Virus record (IMG/VR): IMGVR_UViG_3300022200_000032
Span: 13,856 to 77,855 of that record
Reading direction: 5' to 3' (one strand)
From: a virus
DNA length: 64,000 nucleotides
Part shown: positions 53,481 to 58,812 of the stretch, one piece after another
Layout of the letters: each line of letters begins with the position of its first letter
How positions within the stretch are numbered: position 1 is the first letter of the stretch
Made by a program: the position numbers and the translations under genes
Notes under the pieces: generated by a model
What the model was told of the DNA's origin: nothing
The model's database searches: none
Seen by the model: only the letters and a program-made list of their open reading frames with translations

Positions 53481-55221
53481 GTTATCTAAAATCGATGAAT
53501 TTCAAATTGAAATAACGAGTTATTGTAATTCTGACTGTCCGCAATGTCCCAGAAATATAAACGGTGGAATTAAAAATCCATATCTTCGTCAGGAACATTT
53601 GCCTCGTACAATCATTGATCGTACATTCACAAAAGAAATTTGTTTAAATCTTAGACAAATATTCTTTTGCGGAAGTTATGGTGATCCCATAATGCATCCA
53701 GACTTTCTGAAAATTCTTTCTGATTTCAGAGACAAAAATCCAAAGTTATGGCTTTATGTACACACAAATGGCGGTGCACACGACGAAAAATATTGGAAAG
53801 AACTTGGAGAAATTATTGGTACACAGGGCCAAGTTGATTTTAATGTTGATGGTCTAGCTGACACAAATCCATTGTACCGATTAAACACTGATTTTGATAA
53901 AATAATGCGCAATGCAATGGCGTACATGCGCACTGGTGCGACGGCTGAGTGGAATTATATTGTATTCAAACATAACGAACATCAGGTTGACGATGCTCGC
54001 CAGTTATCAGCTCTGCTTGGATTTAAAAATTTTAATCCCCGCAGTACAGGACGATTTTTTAATCATGAAACCTGTCAAGAATTTAATGAATGGCCAGTAT
54101 TCAATAAAGATGGTGATATCAACTATTCATTGGAAATTCCTGTCGCCATAGAATACCGTAACCAGAGTATGCTATATCTGGATAATCTGGAAAAATCATA
54201 TGGATCCTTTGAAAATTATTTTAATCAAACCAAAATCAATTGTGACTGTTCAAACAAAAATTTGGGCACATCAAAGGTATTAATTAATTCTCACGGCTGG
54301 GTCATGCCTTGCAATTTCTTTAATCATAATCTGGAAGATGCTCGATTTTATAATCGTTCTGTTATGCCAGGCAGCAATAATTTAAGTTTCTTACCTGATG
54401 GCAAAAATCAAATTCAAAATTTATTTGAAAAACACAATGCATCAAAAACACTTAACATCAATGATTGTTCGTTAAGTGAAATTTTTGAAAATGATTTTTG
54501 GAAAGAAATACAAGACTCATGGAACAAAGATTTAAATAACGGCAGAATTTTTGAGTGTGCAATGACTTGTGGCAGTAAATTGACCAAAGTATGGGATCAA
54601 ACTAAAATGAAAACTAATAAATTTTTAATTACCGGTGCTAATCATGGCTTAGGACTAGAATTAGCAAATCACTTCAGAGGTGTAAATGCATCACGATCTG
54701 CTAACGATAACGGTTTAAAAATTGATATCACAAATGCTGACGATGTCAAGCGTATTGCCGAACATAGTTTGAATTATGATGTGTTTATTAATAATGCATT
54801 TGATGGACCAGCTGGTGAACCATGGGCTAATTTTGCGCAAGTTAACGTGTTAGTTGCTGTCTATGATGCCTGGGTGCGTGCAAACAAAACGGGATACATT
54901 ATTAACATCGGAAGCATTGGTGAAAAAGACATTGCCGCACCAGAACCCACATTCGAACGTTATCGTATTCCCAAGGCGGCACTATCACATGCAAGCAAAC
55001 AATGCACCAGAGCATTCAAACAAAACAAAATTCAGTTTAAAACCAGTTTGCTTACTATCGATCGTGTGGATCTGCCACATATCAGAGAAAGAGCAAGTTG
55101 GACAGGCAATGGGTTAGATCCACGTGATGTGATACGTGCAATTGAATTTATTATGGATACACAACCTAACACCTGCATTGAAGAAATTACTGCTTGGGTA
55201 AATTATAATTTTGAACAGTAA
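53467..55221 (+). CDS. Radical SAM/SPASM domain fused to a short-chain dehydrogenase/reductase (SDR) domain
   Basis: CNSDCPQC, GDP, TNG, DG, PC...CAMTCG; then ITGANHGLG, INNA, NIGS, YRIPK (YxxxK). Confidence 0.85.
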   Translation: MMMFELSKIDEFQIEITSYCNSDCPQCPRNINGGIKNPYLRQEHLPRTIIDRTFTKEICLNLRQIFFCGSYGDPIMHPDFLKILSDFRDKNPKLWLYVHTNGGAHDEKYWKELGEIIGTQGQVDFNVDGLADTNPLYRLNTDFDKIMRNAMAYMRTGATAEWNYIVFKHNEHQVDDARQLSALLGFKNFNPRSTGRFFNHETCQEFNEWPVFNKDGDINYSLEIPVAIEYRNQSMLYLDNLEKSYGSFENYFNQTKINCDCSNKNLGTSKVLINSHGWVMPCNFFNHNLEDARFYNRSVMPGSNNLSFLPDGKNQIQNLFEKHNASKTLNINDCSLSEIFENDFWKEIQDSWNKDLNNGRIFECAMTCGSKLTKVWDQTKMKTNKFLITGANHGLGLELANHFRGVNASRSANDNGLKIDITNADDVKRIAEHSLNYDVFINNAFDGPAGEPWANFAQVNVLVAVYDAWVRANKTGYIINIGSIGEKDIAAPEPTFERYRIPKAALSHASKQCTRAFKQNKIQFKTSLLTIDRVDLPHIRERASWTGNGLDPRDVIRAIEFIMDTQPNTCIEEITAWVNYNFEQ

Positions 55222-55257
55222 TTTATTGCAATTATATTACAAGGAATAAGTAAGCAC

Positions 55258-55779
55258 GTGCCAAGTCCGCAGAAAGCAAAAGGTAGTAATTGGGAAAGAG
55301 ATGTTGCTAGACAACTTTCTGAAATCTACAACGAAACCTTTATTCGTGTTCCAGGATCTGGTGCGTATGTGGGCGGGTTAAACGCTGCTCGCAAAGAATT
55401 TTTACACGAAGGAACCATACGAGTTCTTAAAGGAGATATTGTTCCTCCATTAAGTTTTCCTCGTTTTAATGCTGAGTGTAAGAGTTATAAAGAATTTCCG
55501 TGGCATCAACTATACACAGGCGACTGCAAAGTTCTTGACGGTTGGATAACTCAGTGCCTGGATGCTGCGGATGATGGAGATGTGAACTTTTTGTTCATGA
55601 AATTTAACCGTAAAGGCACATATTTGGCATTTGAACAGGCATATCAAGATAATTTTTTAACACCAAGTTACACATTATATTCAGGGAAAAATTTAGGCAA
55701 GAACTGGATCATAACAGATTTAGGTACATTTTTAGGCATAAGGCATAATCAAGACCATCTTAAAGAGTTGTGTGCATAA
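55258..55779 (+). CDS. Holliday junction resolvase-like PD-(D/E)XK nuclease
   Basis: KAKGSNWER, RVPGSGA, GDI, AECKSY; ATAAGTA at 55246-55252. Confidence 0.75.
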   Translation: MPSPQKAKGSNWERDVARQLSEIYNETFIRVPGSGAYVGGLNAARKEFLHEGTIRVLKGDIVPPLSFPRFNAECKSYKEFPWHQLYTGDCKVLDGWITQCLDAADDGDVNFLFMKFNRKGTYLAFEQAYQDNFLTPSYTLYSGKNLGKNWIITDLGTFLGIRHNQDHLKELCA

Positions 55780-55799
55780 GAATTAGCGCACGGTTAAAT

Positions 55800-56245
55800 C
55801 GTTGATAGCCTAGCTTGGGGCGATTAGTACAAGCGGTAATACTCTCTGTTGTGTGGAGGACACCCAAATCGTGAGCAGCGACACGGACTTCAATCACTAT
55901 CCTTAACAGGACGCTGATACGACATGCCTGTGAACTTTGAACGTCTTTTTGTAGTTCACTAACGTATTTGATTGAATGTATGGCGAATTAAAAAGGCTAA
56001 ATGATGCTGCTCTGTCAAAAAATCAACAGCAAGTTTGCATATAGCGGGCAATTAGTTATATGCGAGCTCCCGTCAGAAACAAGTCTAGAGTAGGGGGTAC
56101 AGGCTGACCGCCTCCGTGGAATGTATATTAAACATCTTAATCTCTTATAATTGCTGGCTAGCTCACTCGACGAAAGATGAATTAGTTTGAACTTTACCCC
56201 CGGATGGGTAAAGTCTGACCAGTCTATCTGACGAAGATATTATCC
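55800..56245 (+). ncRNA. Candidate large, highly structured ncRNA (~450 nt)
   Basis: No ORF of 60 aa or more; many nested stems whose G-U pairs work only on the + strand; loop-distal pseudoknot. Confidence 0.65.
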
Positions 56246-56307
56246 GATCATACCTGCAATTAACATTAGATTTACAATTATACAACAATAATTAGATTTT
56301 AAAACCA

Positions 56308-56351
56308 TAAGATTGAGCGTTAGCGAAATCTTAGATATGCGTAGCATATCT
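56308..56351 (+). other. Tandem stable ssDNA-type hairpins (GA-GC-GTTA-GC-GA; GC-GTA-GC triloop), candidate priming/origin signal
   Basis: TAAGATT-GAGCGTTAGCGA-AATCTTA and AGATATGC-GTA-GCATATCT, after an AT-rich tract. Confidence 0.45.
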
Positions 56352-56435
56352 TCGAATATATAATTAATGATGATATGCTCATACTCTGAGTTGAGATATC
56401 AGAATCATTCAGAATTTTTGGTAATAATGCTCATG

Positions 56436-56472
56436 AAAAAGCCCCTAGCATTTTGGCACTACTAGGGGCTTT
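56436..56472. terminator. Intrinsic terminator, probably bidirectional, between convergent units
   Basis: AAAGCCCCTAG...CTAGGGGCTTT stem; longer U tract on the minus strand. Confidence 0.75.
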
Positions 56473-56506
56473 GATTTAGGCATGTTACGTTGCGTAACAC
56501 ATTTAT

Positions 56507-56839
56507 TTATTCAAATGTGTCTGGCCAGTCACGATAATATGCGTGTTTGATATCTTCAACAAATTGATTGAAACTCTGATGTTTTGCTTCGAGTTCTCCC
56601 TCAAGTGGAGCCACACGTTTGAATGCATCTTCAAGTTGTGCCATGTCTTTAAACTCCATCATGATGTGCCACTCTGGCAAATTAGGAATTGAAGCAAAAC
56701 CCATCTTACAACGTGTAATACGATAACCTTCGCATTTGCCTTCGTTTTTTAAGTGATCCAGAAATCCCTTCATGTTGTTTACCCAATCAATGTCGGGTAT
56801 GTCTGTGGACTTTTCAGCCCAGATATGATAAATGTCCAT
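56507..56839 (-). CDS. DUF6614-like small alpha/beta protein
   Basis: MDIYHIW, YRITRCKMG, EWHIMMEF..MAQLEDAF resemble that family from memory. Confidence 0.55.
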   Translation of the reverse strand: MDIYHIWAEKSTDIPDIDWVNNMKGFLDHLKNEGKCEGYRITRCKMGFASIPNLPEWHIMMEFKDMAQLEDAFKRVAPLEGELEAKHQSFNQFVEDIKHAYYRDWPDTFE

Positions 56840-57261
56840 TATGTTCTTGGTCCTAGTATTTCAAATCCATCTATTTGACGCTTGTATTCCGAAGCTTCGC
56901 CCAGATACAAATAGTCAAACCCTCGCATTTTGTAATAAGCACATTCACTTTTTAGACTAGAAAGTCCTAGCCTTAATTTGGGATTCTGGTAGTCCCAAGC
57001 AAACTGAATCGCCTCTACATTTTTGTTATCAAAAACTTGCATCAAGCTAAATGCCACAAGTTTGTCTTGATCATAATAACCCAGTACCTCATTTTTAAAG
57101 TATTCTTGTGGAAATATGGGCATCACTGAATTAAATTTTTTGTGTACACAATAAGAATTGTAAATTTTTTCCAATTCGTCTGGATCAGGATTTGATATTA
57201 CCTGAAAATTATCCAAGACAGAGTAATTGGTATCAGATAATTGTATTCTGGCATATATCAT
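56839..57261 (-). CDS. Arginyl-tRNA--protein transferase (ATE/Bpt) C-terminal-like GNAT protein
   Basis: LVAFSL, WDY..PKLRLG...L..E......GFDYLYLG...YK. Confidence 0.6.
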   Translation of the reverse strand: MIYARIQLSDTNYSVLDNFQVISNPDPDELEKIYNSYCVHKKFNSVMPIFPQEYFKNEVLGYYDQDKLVAFSLMQVFDNKNVEAIQFAWDYQNPKLRLGLSSLKSECAYYKMRGFDYLYLGEASEYKRQIDGFEILGPRT

Positions 57262-57761
57262 GTTCTGGGATCCTGTCTGTGCAAAAATAAATCGTCCAGA
57301 TATTCTGGATCCCAGCCTGAATAATAGCCCTTTTTGTATAGATTTGCACTTGCATCATCTAAATTTTTAGTGAGTGCCGCGATGCTAAGTGCATATGTGC
57401 CATGATTAAAACAAACACCGTTTTGTGTTTCTGTATGATCTGGATGATCACTCAGACTCACTAATCCTGCTGATTTCATGGGTCCAGCATTTGCTTCGTC
57501 AATATGTTCGTTAAATTCATCAGCACTCCATAGATTTGGGTCGTAGATGTAAACAACAACTTCCCACGTTTCCATACCTTTTTTGCTTAACATTAATAAG
57601 TCTAGATATGGATCACCGCCTAAACGATAATCAACTTGATTTTTTAAGCGGGCTTGACGTGCATACGGACACGGAGGAAACCCACCTAGCGCAGGATGTG
57701 GAACCTCAATAAAATTTTCTAACCAGTTTTCAACTGATTCTCGTGCTGCTTTTAAATCCAT
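57258..57761 (-). CDS. DUF1415/YqcI-YcgG-like protein with a PCPYA motif
   Basis: WLENFIE.PHP.LGGFPPCPYARQA, DHPD, GYY..W. Confidence 0.45.
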   Translation of the reverse strand: MDLKAARESVENWLENFIEVPHPALGGFPPCPYARQARLKNQVDYRLGGDPYLDLLMLSKKGMETWEVVVYIYDPNLWSADEFNEHIDEANAGPMKSAGLVSLSDHPDHTETQNGVCFNHGTYALSIAALTKNLDDASANLYKKGYYSGWDPEYLDDLFLHRQDPRT

Positions 57762-57973
57762 TAAAAATACGGTAATCCTGTTTTCTTAGTTGTTTCCATG
57801 TTGTCTTTGACAAGTTTTGATAATAATTCTCGCTCTTTAAAACTTAACATTAAAGCACTTTCATAACTTAACCCACCCCGCATATACCATGAAAATCGTA
57901 ATGCTTCGTCTTTAATTTGGTTTGTCTCGGCTTCTAATCTATCAACATAATTGGAAATTTCCTCAGAATTCAA
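57761..57973 (-). CDS. gp51-like / tail chaperone 'T' segment, probably reached by -1 frameshift from the upstream gene
   Basis: Only a TTG start; the -1 frame is open from the slippery site at 57991-58000; WYMRGG.SY...L...ER. Confidence 0.6.
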   Translation of the reverse strand: MNSEEISNYVDRLEAETNQIKDEALRFSWYMRGGLSYESALMLSFKERELLSKLVKDNMETTKKTGLPYF

Positions 57974-57984
57974 GGTCAGAAGCC

Positions 57985-58812
57985 TTATCCGAAAAAATTT
58001 GTCATATCCAGTGTAAATGGTTGTTTGTATTCATGACCGCAACTACGACACTTGATATCTAATGGTTTGAGTTCAGCTTCCTTTCTCAAGTTCATGATAT
58101 GATCTCGAATAGTATCAAATATACCTTTGTCACAGTTTCGCAAAAACTCATCAATATATTGTGGTTCACTAACATCCGCATCGGGTGTATGAATATAATG
58201 AATACCCTGCCGTACTGCTTTTAGTGTTAACTGACTTACTTTTTTGAATGCTTCGGCGACATGTGTTAATTTTTCTTCTTCAGTCATTTCTGAATCCTGA
58301 ATCAGACTCATTAATTTTTGTTCTTCAAACTGCACAATGCTGTTTCCGGTAAGTTGTTTATAACTTAATGGTTTGAAGTGAATTTCTAAATCACCAACTA
58401 ATCTGGGTTGATCAAACTTCGGCGTTTTAAATCCATCAAGTACTGTACGTAGGTCAAGCGCATAGGTAGATTCTTCGCTACATTTAGGACATGTGGTGTC
58501 AATATCCATTGAATGCCCGTAACTGGCAATTCTGATAGCGATTAAAATAGTATCAATGTCGATGTTGGGCATTGCCCAAGCATTTTTAATTGCAGGAATG
58601 CAGCTCTGAACGACATCAACCAATGCCTGACCGTTAAACAATGCATCTGGTGTACGATAGGTAATTTCATCAATGGCTGTCATAGGAAACACAGGAAGTT
58701 CTTTGTTGTCAGGCAGATCAATTGTACCCGGTGGCCAATATTTGCCGTCACTAGGTAGTTTGATGTAAATTGCTGGACGTCTAAAATATCCGGTCAAAGG
58801 GTTGTCAGCCAT
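57985..58812 (-). CDS. Baseplate hub assembly protein, T4 gp26-like
   Basis: IKLPSDG, PMTAIDE, ILIAIRIASYG, CPKC, C-terminal CRSCG...NFF. Confidence 0.8.
   Translation of the reverse strand: MADNPLTGYFRRPAIYIKLPSDGKYWPPGTIDLPDNKELPVFPMTAIDEITYRTPDALFNGQALVDVVQSCIPAIKNAWAMPNIDIDTILIAIRIASYGHSMDIDTTCPKCSEESTYALDLRTVLDGFKTPKFDQPRLVGDLEIHFKPLSYKQLTGNSIVQFEEQKLMSLIQDSEMTEEEKLTHVAEAFKKVSQLTLKAVRQGIHYIHTPDADVSEPQYIDEFLRNCDKGIFDTIRDHIMNLRKEAELKPLDIKCRSCGHEYKQPFTLDMTNFFG

What the first reader, a model, noticed from the sequence alone, without database searches (positions are those of the whole stretch)
55800..56245. Candidate large ornate ncRNA with a pseudoknot in the only long ORF-free gap
Seen: TAGCCT 55806-11 pairs with AGGCTA 55994-99. 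TTCAATCA 55889-96 pairs with TGATTGAA 55969-76 and encloses TCCT-TAAC-AGGA and GTGAACT/AGTTCAC. A 14-bp stem (56032-45 / 56055-68) has three G-U pairs that work only on the + strand, and its loop GGCAATTA (56047-54) is complementary to TAATTGCT (56148-55), giving a pseudoknot. Also GGGGGT/GCCTCC (56093-98 / 56110-15) and ACTTTACCC/GGGTAAAGT (56191-214), the latter flanked by two related GACGAA(A)GAT motifs. I do not recognise tRNA, tmRNA, RNase P or group I/II cores. Inference: a functional ~450-nt phage RNA, comparable in complexity to the ROOL/GOLLD class of large ncRNAs and possibly undescribed.
Basis: partly seen in the sequence, partly recalled or inferred. Interest (0 to 1): 0.85.

Follow-up and report, generated by a model that had tools for sequence, protein, structure and literature searches.

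The report
Full-length Polynucleobacter-1 knotted phage RNA
The largest gene-free gap of this giant T4-like freshwater phage encodes a real, roughly 555-base, four-times-knotted non-coding RNA; only its first quarter is catalogued (the orphan Rfam motif Polynucleobacter-1) and its function is still unknown.

Summary
Rfam places 55808-55947 (+) in RF01718 Polynucleobacter-1, just over threshold (39.2 bits, cut-off 37). The RNA is much larger, about 55799-56351. It has a 5' domain, a middle domain, a tail with two identical short "twin boxes", an AT-rich linker and a two-hairpin 3' module.

Relatives came from about 40 IMG/VR phage contigs and from Polynucleobacter genomic islands. G-U pairs place the RNA on the + strand. 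Two points failed: the TAGCCT/AGGCTA helix has no covariation support, and folding energy is no better than shuffled controls.

The RNA keeps its place between a small nuclease gene and the gp26 hub module in phages. In bacteria it sits between DUF6641 and a 188-aa tyrosine recombinase. Two further syntenic RNA types share only parts of it and have no Rfam match.

No RNA-seq data were available, so expression is untested and function is unknown. This scan has met the same RNA many times before on other DNA.

The parts
55258..55779 (+). Upstream gene: a PDDEXK_15 (D14/RusA-like) putative Holliday-junction resolvase, 173 aa. This is context, not part of the RNA.
   Evidence: Pfam PF24608 at 3.2e-22 and PHROG 244. 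Its homologues are annotated as resolvases in jumbo phages. In canonical relatives this position holds a 141-aa SegE-type GIY-YIG gene instead.
55799..55986 (+). 5' domain, the Polynucleobacter-1 motif plus flanks.
- PK1: 55799-804 with 55876-81
- P1: 55813-17 / 55830-34
- P2 (weak): 55843-47 / 55855-59
- P3: 55869-73 / 55882-86
- P4: 55887-96 / 55969-79
- P5: 55900-03 / 55908-11
- P6: 55916-21 / 55963-68, with inserted hairpin 55930-36 / 55953-59
- PK2: 55925-28 with 55982-85
   Evidence: RF01718 hit at 55808-55947. Covariation is shown. PK1 reads CUACUG/CAGUAG in canonical copies, UCGUUG/CAGCGA here, UCGUUA/UAACGA in L003 and UCGCUG/CAGCGA in L004. PK2 occurs as GCUU/AAGC, GGUAU/AUACC, GGCAU/AUGCU, GACAU/AUGUC and, here, UGCC/GGCG.
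56003..56159 (+). Middle domain.
- P7: 56006-09 / 56027-30
- P8: 56033-45 / 56055-67
- PK4: 56072-76 with 56104-08
- P10: 56093-97 / 56111-15, which forms an H-type knot with PK4
- P11: 56121-24 / 56132-35
   Evidence: Covariance model R1, built from canonical phage copies only, finds 56001-56159 at 30.1 bits (E = 6.5e-4). It also finds L003, L004 and 13 bacterial-island loci, 12 of them at E <= 0.0023. Pair counts: 94.5% paired, PK3 and PK4 both 100%. PK4 variants are GUCAU/GUGAC, GUUAU/GUAAC, GUCAG/CUGAC (window), GUUGG/CCAAC (L004), GUUUU/AAAAC and GCUUC/GAAGC.
56163..56238 (+). Twin-box tail.
- P12: 56163-67 / 56175-80, with box 1 GACGAA (56169-74) in its loop
- P13: 56192-99 / 56206-13
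- P14: 56220-22 / 56228-30, followed by box 2 GACGAA (56230-35)
   Evidence: The two boxes are near-identical within a genome and differ between genomes: GACGAA(A) in the window and L003, GUCGAAAG in L004, GGUCAAG(U), GUGUCAAGU, AGACAAG or AGUCAAG in canonical phages, and GCAAAAU in a bacterial copy. P13 has compensated pairs.
56239..56308 (+). AT-rich linker that varies in sequence between relatives.
   Evidence: It is poorly conserved in alignment A1. Relative L072 carries four tandem ATCAAATGTG repeats here and L083 carries one.
56309..56351 (+). 3' module. Hairpin 1 is 56309-14 / 56327-32 with loop GAGCGUUAGCGA. Hairpin 2 is 56333-40 / 56344-51 with loop GUA.
   Evidence: The module is present in every RNA type and in the bacterial copies. 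The inner pairs of hairpin 2 covary freely. Model R2 scores 64.7 bits here. The only other match in the 64-kb window is an antisense overlap of this same site at E = 0.2. R2 also finds copies that were not used to build it, in bacterial islands and in group C.
56441..56469 (.). Bidirectional intrinsic terminator: GCCCCTAG...CTAGGGGC with T runs on both strands. It closes the convergent transcription units.
   Evidence: Read directly from the sequence. Only weak terminator-type Rfam matches occur here. The region is conserved in L002, L003 and L004.

Best explanation
The gap encodes the full-length form of the Polynucleobacter-1 RNA, a + strand non-coding RNA of about 555 nt (roughly 55799-56351).

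Shown:
- It consists of a 5' domain (the catalogued 141-nt motif), a middle domain, a twin-box tail, a variable AT-rich linker and a two-hairpin 3' module.
- It is tied into a compact fold by four pseudoknots.
- The window's copy is a divergent subgroup. It has an extra hairpin inside P6 and a longer P11. A PDDEXK resolvase gene, not a GIY-YIG gene, lies upstream. Three genes and a terminator are inserted between the RNA and the small ORF/gp26 hub module.

Inferred:
- It is made as the last part of the recombination-gene transcript or from a promoter inside that unit.
- No + strand gene follows it in phages, so it acts as a free-standing folded RNA rather than as a leader.
- I judge it most likely (about 30%) to be the RNA core of a ribonucleoprotein, with the twin boxes and the RYGA-rich loop of the 3' module as the parts a partner reads. 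Its role would be connected with DNA recombination or replication in mobile elements.

The function itself is not shown.
For: - Family membership: RF01718 match at 55808-55947.
- Homology over the whole length with 28 canonical phage copies scoring 84-101 bits.
- Covariation over 101 pairs: 91.5% paired against 84.6% in shuffles, 31 pairs with double changes, 0/500 shuffles as good; slid controls give 30-46%.
- PK3 and PK4 are 100% paired with compensatory changes. Further variants appear in bacterial copies and in the window's own subgroup.
- Many U-G and G-U pairs work only on the + strand.
- No conserved ORF: the spurious ORFs differ among window, L003 and L004.
- Conserved synteny in phages.
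- A second, unrelated context in 17 of 151 Polynucleobacter species genomes. This shows a self-contained module carried by mobile elements.
- The twin boxes change in concert.
- The 3' module has no second significant match in the window and is conserved across RNA types.
Against: - No transcript evidence: no RNA run holds the sequence.
- No convincing promoter; promoter-like sites are no more frequent than in shuffles.
- The 3' end is not defined. Hairpin 2 lacks a U tract and the first clear terminator is at 56441-69.
- The Rfam score is marginal, and cmscan mis-registers the outer helix because of the insertion in P6.
- MFE z-score is only -0.69.
- P2 is weak here, and P9 as I first drew it was wrong.
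- Nothing identifies a protein or nucleic-acid partner.
Confidence: 0.8

Rival explanations
1. RNA-primed replication origin. The structured RNA would be a primer precursor, like ColE1 RNA II or the T4 oriF/oriG R-loop transcripts. The AT-rich linker would be the unwinding element, and the 3' hairpins would mark the RNA-DNA transition.
For: - An AT-rich variable linker separates two conserved structured parts.
- Iteron-like tandem repeats occur in the linker of some relatives (L072, L083).
- The RNA sits at the end of the replication/recombination gene block.
Against: - GC and AT skew on a 285-kb near-complete relative simply follow transcription direction. The locus is a convergent junction, not a skew turning point.
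- The same RNA sits on bacterial islands beside a recombinase, with no replication genes seen next to it.
- A four-pseudoknot fold with invariant loops is far more than a primer needs.
- Linker repeats are absent from most copies.
Confidence: 0.07
2. Cofactor or guide of the neighbouring minimal DNA enzyme. The RNA would target or regulate the small nuclease or recombinase encoded beside it, with the twin boxes read by base pairing.
For: In every context the RNA lies beside a small DNA-cutting or DNA-joining enzyme that is essentially a single catalytic domain:
- a 173-aa PDDEXK protein here;
- a 141-aa SegE-type GIY-YIG protein in canonical phages;
- a 188-aa tyrosine recombinase in 6 of 6 bacterial copies examined.

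The twin boxes co-vary.
Against: - Three unrelated enzyme families replace each other while the RNA stays the same.
- The enzyme is upstream in phages and 0.45-1.4 kb downstream in bacteria.
- PDDEXK_15 resolvases are common in phages that lack any such gap, such as SCTP-2.
- No significant match of any part of the RNA, on either strand, elsewhere in a near-complete relative genome.
- The variable loops pair within the RNA, so they are not free guides.
Confidence: 0.05
3. A cis-acting 3' untranslated element. The fold would protect the upstream recombination mRNA from 3' exonucleases, or insulate the convergent early and late transcription units.
For: - It lies directly after the last + strand gene at a convergent junction.
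- Only about 20 nt separate the stop codon from PK1.
- Hairpin 2 of the 3' module is followed by a short U-containing stretch in groups B and C.
Against: - Four covarying pseudoknots, invariant single-stranded blocks and twin boxes are far more than stabilisation needs.
- In bacterial islands the RNA is preceded by a conserved upstream sequence block that includes a -35/-10-like motif, and the neighbouring DUF6641 gene is divergently oriented, so the RNA is not the 3' end of an mRNA there.
- In this window a proper terminator exists 90 nt further on.
Confidence: 0.08
4. Not an RNA gene. The gap would hold small unannotated protein genes or a DNA-level site such as a recombination or packaging site.
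For: - Short ORFs of 30-45 aa exist in the gap.
- The region adjoins recombination enzymes.
Against: - The ORFs are not conserved among close relatives.
- Substitutions are compensatory in helices and include G-U pairs that are valid on one strand only.
- A covariance model recovers the region across phages and bacteria.
Confidence: 0.02

Closest known systems
Polynucleobacter-1 RNA motif (Rfam RF01718; Weinberg et al. 2010, Genome Biol 11:R31, PMC2864571)
   Same: The window's 55808-55947 matches the whole 141-position model above the gathering score. It shares P1, P3, P5, the invariant CACUAUCC...GGACG block and the outer helix. The 2010 supplement already noted a poorly detected '3' half' and a possible phage link through a P-SSM2-like neighbouring gene.
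   Different: The published motif is only the first quarter. The parts below are not in the Rfam model, and I found no paper describing them:
- PK1, whose 5' strand lies before model position 1
- PK2, PK3 and PK4
- the middle domain
- the twin boxes
- the 3' module

The window's copy is divergent (39 bits against 84-104 for canonical copies). It has an inserted hairpin in P6, and a PDDEXK gene rather than a GIY-YIG gene lies upstream. The 2010 paper found no copy in any purified phage, whereas here the RNA sits in T4-like phage contigs.
GOLLD and ROOL large ornate RNAs (Rfam; phage- and prophage-associated)
   Same: Size class of several hundred nucleotides, many helices and pseudoknots, carriage by phages and other mobile elements, and unknown function.
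   Different: No sequence or structure match: no Rfam hit at E <= 10 in 55000-57000. No neighbouring tRNA genes. The architecture and gene context differ.
ColE1 RNA II and T4 oriF/oriG origin transcripts
   Same: A structured RNA of about 550 nt followed by an AT-rich stretch, in a replication/recombination gene neighbourhood. This is only a functional analogy.
   Different: No homology. No evidence of an RNA-DNA junction or of initiation here. The RNA also occurs on bacterial islands beside a recombinase.
Recombinase- and nuclease-associated RNAs (IS110 bridge RNA, omega RNA/HEARO)
   Same: A structured non-coding RNA encoded next to a small DNA-processing enzyme on mobile elements.
   Different: The neighbouring enzymes belong to three unrelated families and change position. 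No programmable free loops were found, and no significant match to the rest of a near-complete relative genome on either strand. There is no Rfam match to those families.

Membership tests
Rfam RF01718 Polynucleobacter-1 | Covariance-model score at or above the curated gathering score (37 bits) | tested here: met
   39.2 bits over model positions 1-141 at 55808-55947 (+). The margin is small. Close relatives score 38.5 (L004) and 32.7 (L003).
Rfam RF01718 Polynucleobacter-1 | Hairpin P3 with a GCAGYRRC-type loop, and hairpin P5 (UCCU-NNNN-AGGA) inside the invariant block CACUAUCC...GGACG | tested here: met
   P3 is 55869-73 / 55882-86 with loop AGCAGCGA, compensated in L004 (UUGCG/CGCAG). P5 is 55900-03 / 55908-11 and is invariant in all 31 sequences.
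Rfam RF01718 Polynucleobacter-1 | Outer helix enclosing P5 and P6 (model positions 83-88 with 133-138) | tested here: met
   cmscan's register shows non-standard pairs. The true partner is 55969-79, displaced by a 45-nt insertion in P6. That gives 8+2 bp, with compensatory changes in L004.
Rfam RF01718 Polynucleobacter-1 | Hairpin P2 (model positions 36-54) | tested here: inconclusive
   Only UCUCU/GGAGG (5 bp, two of them G-U) can form here. cmscan marks mismatches, and the three close relatives show no variation.
Rfam RF01718 Polynucleobacter-1 | Typical context: downstream of a GOS11034-type gene, as stated in the 2010 supplement | tested here: not met
   Canonical phage copies follow a SegE-type GIY-YIG gene. 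The window has a PDDEXK_15 gene instead. Context is not part of the model, so membership stands.
tRNA / tmRNA | Detectable by ARAGORN | tested here: not met
   No tRNA or tmRNA gene in the whole window.
GOLLD, ROOL, RNase P RNA, group I/II introns, 6S and other Rfam families | Covariance-model match | tested here: not met
   In 55000-57000 with permissive filters, only RF01718 and chance-level hits at the terminator reach E <= 10.
Intrinsic terminator (for hairpin 2 of the 3' module) | GC-rich stem followed by a run of U | tested here: not met
   The stem AGAUAUGC/GCAUAUCU is AT-rich and is followed by UCGAAUAU. The terminator scan does not list it. The true terminator is at 56441-69.

The most novel reading that the evidence does not exclude
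The RNA is the shared, portable RNA subunit of a new kind of RNA-dependent DNA recombination or cleavage system. Minimal catalytic-domain enzymes of three unrelated folds (GIY-YIG, PDDEXK, a 188-aa tyrosine recombinase) would be interchangeable partners. The co-evolving twin boxes would be read by base pairing with the DNA or RNA target.
Probability: 0.04. Interest if true: 0.95.

Novelty: new variant of a known kind. Interest (0 to 1): 0.55.

Why it matters
Large RNAs with several pseudoknots are rare, and every well-understood one has turned out to be a ribozyme, a riboswitch or the core of a ribonucleoprotein machine.

The work here turns a 141-nt orphan motif from 2010 into a roughly 555-nt RNA with four covariation-supported pseudoknots. 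It also fixes where the RNA lives: in giant T4-like freshwater phages and on small recombinase-bearing islands of Polynucleobacter. Finally, it shows that the same genomic slot in related phages holds two further, uncatalogued structured RNAs, both with the same 3' module and one also sharing parts of the core. That gives structural and genetic experiments a defined target with boundaries, helices, twin boxes and natural variants.

For this window the finding is not new to the scan, and no function has been gained.

Tried and rejected
- Expression: no RNA holder is listed for 55700-56500; only DNA metagenome runs appear.
- Folding energy against shuffles: not significant on either strand. It was rejected as a criterion because covariation is decisive.
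- Cultured phages: no DNA match for the window gap or for a canonical copy. The resolvase homologue in Salicola phage SCTP-2 has no comparable gap beside it; Sinorhizobium phage Phosso has none downstream, though an unexamined ~1-kb unannotated gap lies upstream of its gene.
- Origin test: cumulative GC/AT skew and gene orientation on a 285-kb relative were uninformative, because skew tracks transcription.
- Guide test: blastn-short of a canonical RNA against the rest of its genome gave only chance-level matches.
- Promoter and terminator scans: nothing above shuffle expectation.
- My first P9 helix was mis-drawn (33% paired). PK4 replaces it.
- A raw all-against-all covariation scan was too noisy to use, because of phylogenetic signal.
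- A scripted search for further copies of the 3' module was too permissive and missed the window's own copy. Model R2 replaced it.
- R2 is insensitive to the long-loop canonical form, so uniqueness of the module could be judged only in this window.
- Defence-system profiles (PADLOC) for the neighbouring proteins gave no hit, apart from an AbiEi-like ORF in one bacterial island.
- Literature: only the 2010 paper mentions the motif. A 2026 preprint on mapping non-coding sequence space does not mention it.

Full report
**What is in the sequence.** The window is part of a 77.9-kb IMG/VR virus record that CheckV rates about 22% complete. It carries T4-type genes: the gp55 late sigma factor, gp47/gp46 SbcCD-like nuclease, a radical-SAM fusion and a gp26-type baseplate hub.

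The gap 55780-56506 lies between convergent genes. On the + strand a 173-aa PDDEXK_15 (D14/RusA-like) resolvase gene ends at 55779. On the - strand a DUF6614 gene ends at 56507. At 727 nt it is the longest ORF-free stretch in the window; the next is 372 nt.

**Known part.** Rfam's RF01718 Polynucleobacter-1 matches 55808-55947 (+) over the whole 141-position model. The score is 39.2 bits against a gathering score of 37. No other family reaches E <= 10 apart from chance-level hits on the terminator at about 56430-56520. ARAGORN finds no tRNA or tmRNA.

The only paper in the library that names the motif is Weinberg et al. 2010. Its supplement says three things: the 3' half is not always detected, most copies follow a GOS11034 gene with possible homology to cyanophage P-SSM2 locus 218, and no copy was found in a purified phage. 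The flanks printed in its Stockholm file already look conserved well beyond the motif.

**Relatives.** The resolvase protein recovered 26 viral loci, and each has a gap of 630-870 nt after the gene. By sequence they fall into three groups:
- Group A: window, L003, L004.
- Group B: L005-L014, L016 and the 5' part of L002.
- Group C: L015, L017-L026.

A DNA pattern taken from the motif core, followed by RF01718 scoring, gave about 40 further viral contigs with canonical copies at 84-101 bits. I call these group P. One of them lies on a 285-kb contig rated 86% complete.

In group P the gene order is gp47, gp46, Hc1-like, a 141-aa SegE-type GIY-YIG gene, the RNA, then on the opposite strand a 73-75-aa ORF and the gp26 hub. 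The window has the same small ORF at 57761-57988 (-) next to its hub. Three genes (56507-57761) and a bidirectional terminator (56441-69) have therefore been inserted between the RNA and that ORF.

**Extent and architecture.** Groups A and P align over about 560 nt. In window coordinates the helices are:

| Element | Coordinates |
|---|---|
| PK1 | 55799-804 with 55876-81 (the loop of P3) |
| P1 | 55813-17 / 55830-34 |
| P2 (weak) | 55843-47 / 55855-59 |
| P3 | 55869-73 / 55882-86 |
| P5 | 55900-03 / 55908-11 |
| P6 | 55916-21 / 55963-68 |
| P6 insert (group A only) | 55930-36 / 55953-59 |
| PK2 | 55925-28 with 55982-85 |
| P7 | 56006-09 / 56027-30 |
| P8 | 56033-45 / 56055-67 |
| PK3 | 56047-54 with 56148-55 |
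| PK4 | 56072-76 with 56104-08 |
| P11 | 56121-24 / 56132-35 |
| P12 | 56163-67 / 56175-80 |
| P13 | 56192-99 / 56206-13 |
| P14 | 56220-22 / 56228-30 |
| AT-rich linker | 56239-56308 |
| 3' module, hairpin 1 | 56309-14 / 56327-32 |
| 3' module, hairpin 2 | 56333-40 / 56344-51 |

**Is it more than chance?** I tested a 17-helix structure on 28 canonical copies (alignment A2). It gives 91.5% paired cells against 84.6% in shuffles. There are 31 pairs with changes on both sides and a covariation score of 0.224 against 0.105. No shuffle in 500 reached any of these values. Sliding the 3' partners by 1-3 columns drops pairing to 30-46%.

On the middle domain alone (A5), pairing is 94.5%. PK3 is 100% paired with 4 of 7 pairs doubly changed, and PK4 is 100% paired.

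A covariance model built only from canonical phage copies (R1) recovers the window (56001-56159, 30.1 bits), L003, L004 and 13 bacterial-island loci, 12 of them at E <= 0.0023. It finds nothing in groups B or C.

The recovered sequences add new compensated variants:
- PK3: GGCAAUUA/UAAUUGCU (window), GUGAUUA/UAAUCAC (L004), CCACUUA/UAAGUGG and GCACUUC/GAAGUGC (bacteria), and in phages CAAUUA/UAAUUG, CAACUA/UAGUUG, UGGAUU/AAUCCA, UGGUUU/AAACCA.
- PK4: GUCAG/CUGAC (window), GUUGG/CCAAC (L004), GUCAU/GUGAC, GUUAU/GUAAC, GUUUU/AAAAC, GCUUC/GAAGC.

PK1 never varies within group P but is compensated between groups: CUACUG/CAGUAG against UCGUUG/CAGCGA, UCGUUA/UAACGA and UCGCUG/CAGCGA. Frequent U-G and G-U pairs, which would be A-C mismatches on the other strand, fix the RNA on the + strand.

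**What did not hold.**
- The TAGCCT/AGGCTA closing helix shows only one-sided changes in group A. In group P the corresponding 3' strand pairs with the P6 loop as PK2 (GCUU/AAGC, GGUAU/AUACC, GGCAU/AUGCU, GACAU/AUGUC).
- Single-sequence folding energy is no better than shuffles.
- P2 is weak in this copy.

**Twin boxes and 3' module.** Earlier follow-up reports of this scan on other genomes describe the same thing. I had seen the concerted change in alignment A1 before reading them, and I counted it.

It has three features:
- A first hairpin whose loop is built of RYGA words.
- An 8-bp second hairpin that starts AGAU or AGUU and ends AUCU or AACU.
- Inner pairs in that second hairpin that covary freely.

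A model of the module (R2) scores 64.7 bits here and has no second significant match in the 64-kb window. It recovers copies it was not trained on in group C and in bacterial islands. So the module is specific to this locus and is not a general terminator.

**Sister RNAs.** Groups B and C occupy the same slot and are also structured. RNAalifold predicts 66 pairs with 20 compensated for B, and 78 pairs with 40 compensated for C. Neither has an Rfam match at E <= 10. B shares the first hairpins, a P13-like hairpin plus GUCUGACUGAA, and the 3' module with A and P. C shares only the 3' module.

**Second context.** RF01718 is present in 17 of 151 Polynucleobacter species genomes sampled. There are one or two copies per genome, at different chromosomal positions, so the RNA is accessory there. 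In six of six copies examined the order is the same: a divergent DUF6641 gene, the RNA, then 0.45-1.4 kb further on the same strand a 188-aa tyrosine recombinase consisting of the catalytic domain only. The core, twin boxes and 3' module are all present there. The RNA is therefore a self-contained module of mobile elements and does not depend on any one neighbouring protein.

**How it most likely works.**

*Shown:* it is a conserved, + strand, compactly knotted RNA with invariant unpaired blocks, such as CACUAUCC...GGACG and GGUACAG..ACCGCC.

*Inferred:* no + strand gene follows it in phages, so it acts as a free RNA. The co-evolving twin boxes and the RYGA loop look like recognition elements for a partner. 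The repeated neighbourhood of DNA-junction enzymes points loosely to recombination or replication. I put about 30% on a ribonucleoprotein role of that kind.

The rivals are listed with their odds in the Rival explanations section: origin primer, enzyme cofactor or guide, 3' UTR stabiliser, and not an RNA at all. None could be tested decisively here:
- No RNA-seq run holds the sequence.
- Skew analysis was uninformative.
- No significant match to the rest of a relative genome, on either strand, was found.
- No promoter stood out.

**Novelty and verdict.** The 5' quarter is a known orphan Rfam family. The full length, the four pseudoknots, the twin boxes, the 3' module, the phage home and the sister RNAs do not appear in the literature I could search. 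They have, however, been reported repeatedly by this scan on other genomes: one search returned 622 notes in at least 388 genomes that hold the search words.

The window's copy is a divergent variant, with the P6 insertion, the PDDEXK neighbour and the inserted three-gene block. The function remains unknown.

Noticed in passing
L005-L014, L016 (group B) and L015, L017-L026 (group C), the 400-470 nt after the resolvase gene: Related phages carry two other large structured RNAs in the same slot, with 20 (B) and 40 (C) compensated pairs. Neither has an Rfam match. Group C shares only the 3' two-hairpin module with the window's RNA.
   Followed up: partly
L254 (G130:C1:2120001-2140000), L255/L256 (G203), L257 (G117), L161, L173: In Polynucleobacter genomes the RNA travels as a module: a divergent DUF6641 gene, the RNA, then a 188-aa catalytic-domain-only tyrosine recombinase. 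It is found in 17 of 151 species genomes, sometimes twice (two modules 18 kb apart in G203).
   Followed up: partly
L255:4274-4825 (+): In one bacterial island an AbiEi-like (abortive-infection antitoxin) ORF lies between the RNA and the recombinase gene, on the opposite strand.
   Followed up: no
window 56507-57761 (-) and 56441-56469: Three genes (DUF6614, a 140-aa ATE_C-like protein and a 167-aa protein) plus a bidirectional terminator sit between the RNA and the small ORF/gp26 hub. In the other phage groups examined (B, C and P) the RNA directly abuts the small ORF, so this looks like an inserted cassette.
   Followed up: partly
window 55258-55779 versus L028:331-759: The gene in front of the RNA is a PDDEXK_15 resolvase in groups A, B and C and a SegE-type GIY-YIG protein in canonical phages. 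This looks like a non-orthologous replacement at one position.
   Followed up: partly
L072 and L083, linker between the twin-box tail and the 3' module (alignment A1 columns about 525-600): L072 has four tandem copies of ATCAAATGTG in the AT-rich linker. L083 has one copy plus two copies of CACTATAAT. The repeats resemble iterons and vary in copy number.
   Followed up: no
Group P, P6 loop and following bases (e.g. L036, alignment A2 columns about 134-163): TTGCTTGA followed 13 nt later by TAGTAT resembles a T4 middle promoter (MotA box plus -10). The box is not conserved where PK2 covaries, so this is probably coincidence.
   Followed up: no
window 57761-57988 (-): A 70-75-aa ORF with a TTG start lies directly after the gp26-type hub gene and is conserved in all phage groups (46% identity to L017). 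It has no Pfam or PHROG match.
   Followed up: no
L108:2986-4001 (Sinorhizobium phage Phosso): An unannotated gap of about 1 kb lies upstream of the homologous resolvase gene in this 469-kb cultured phage. I did not examine it for structure.
   Followed up: no
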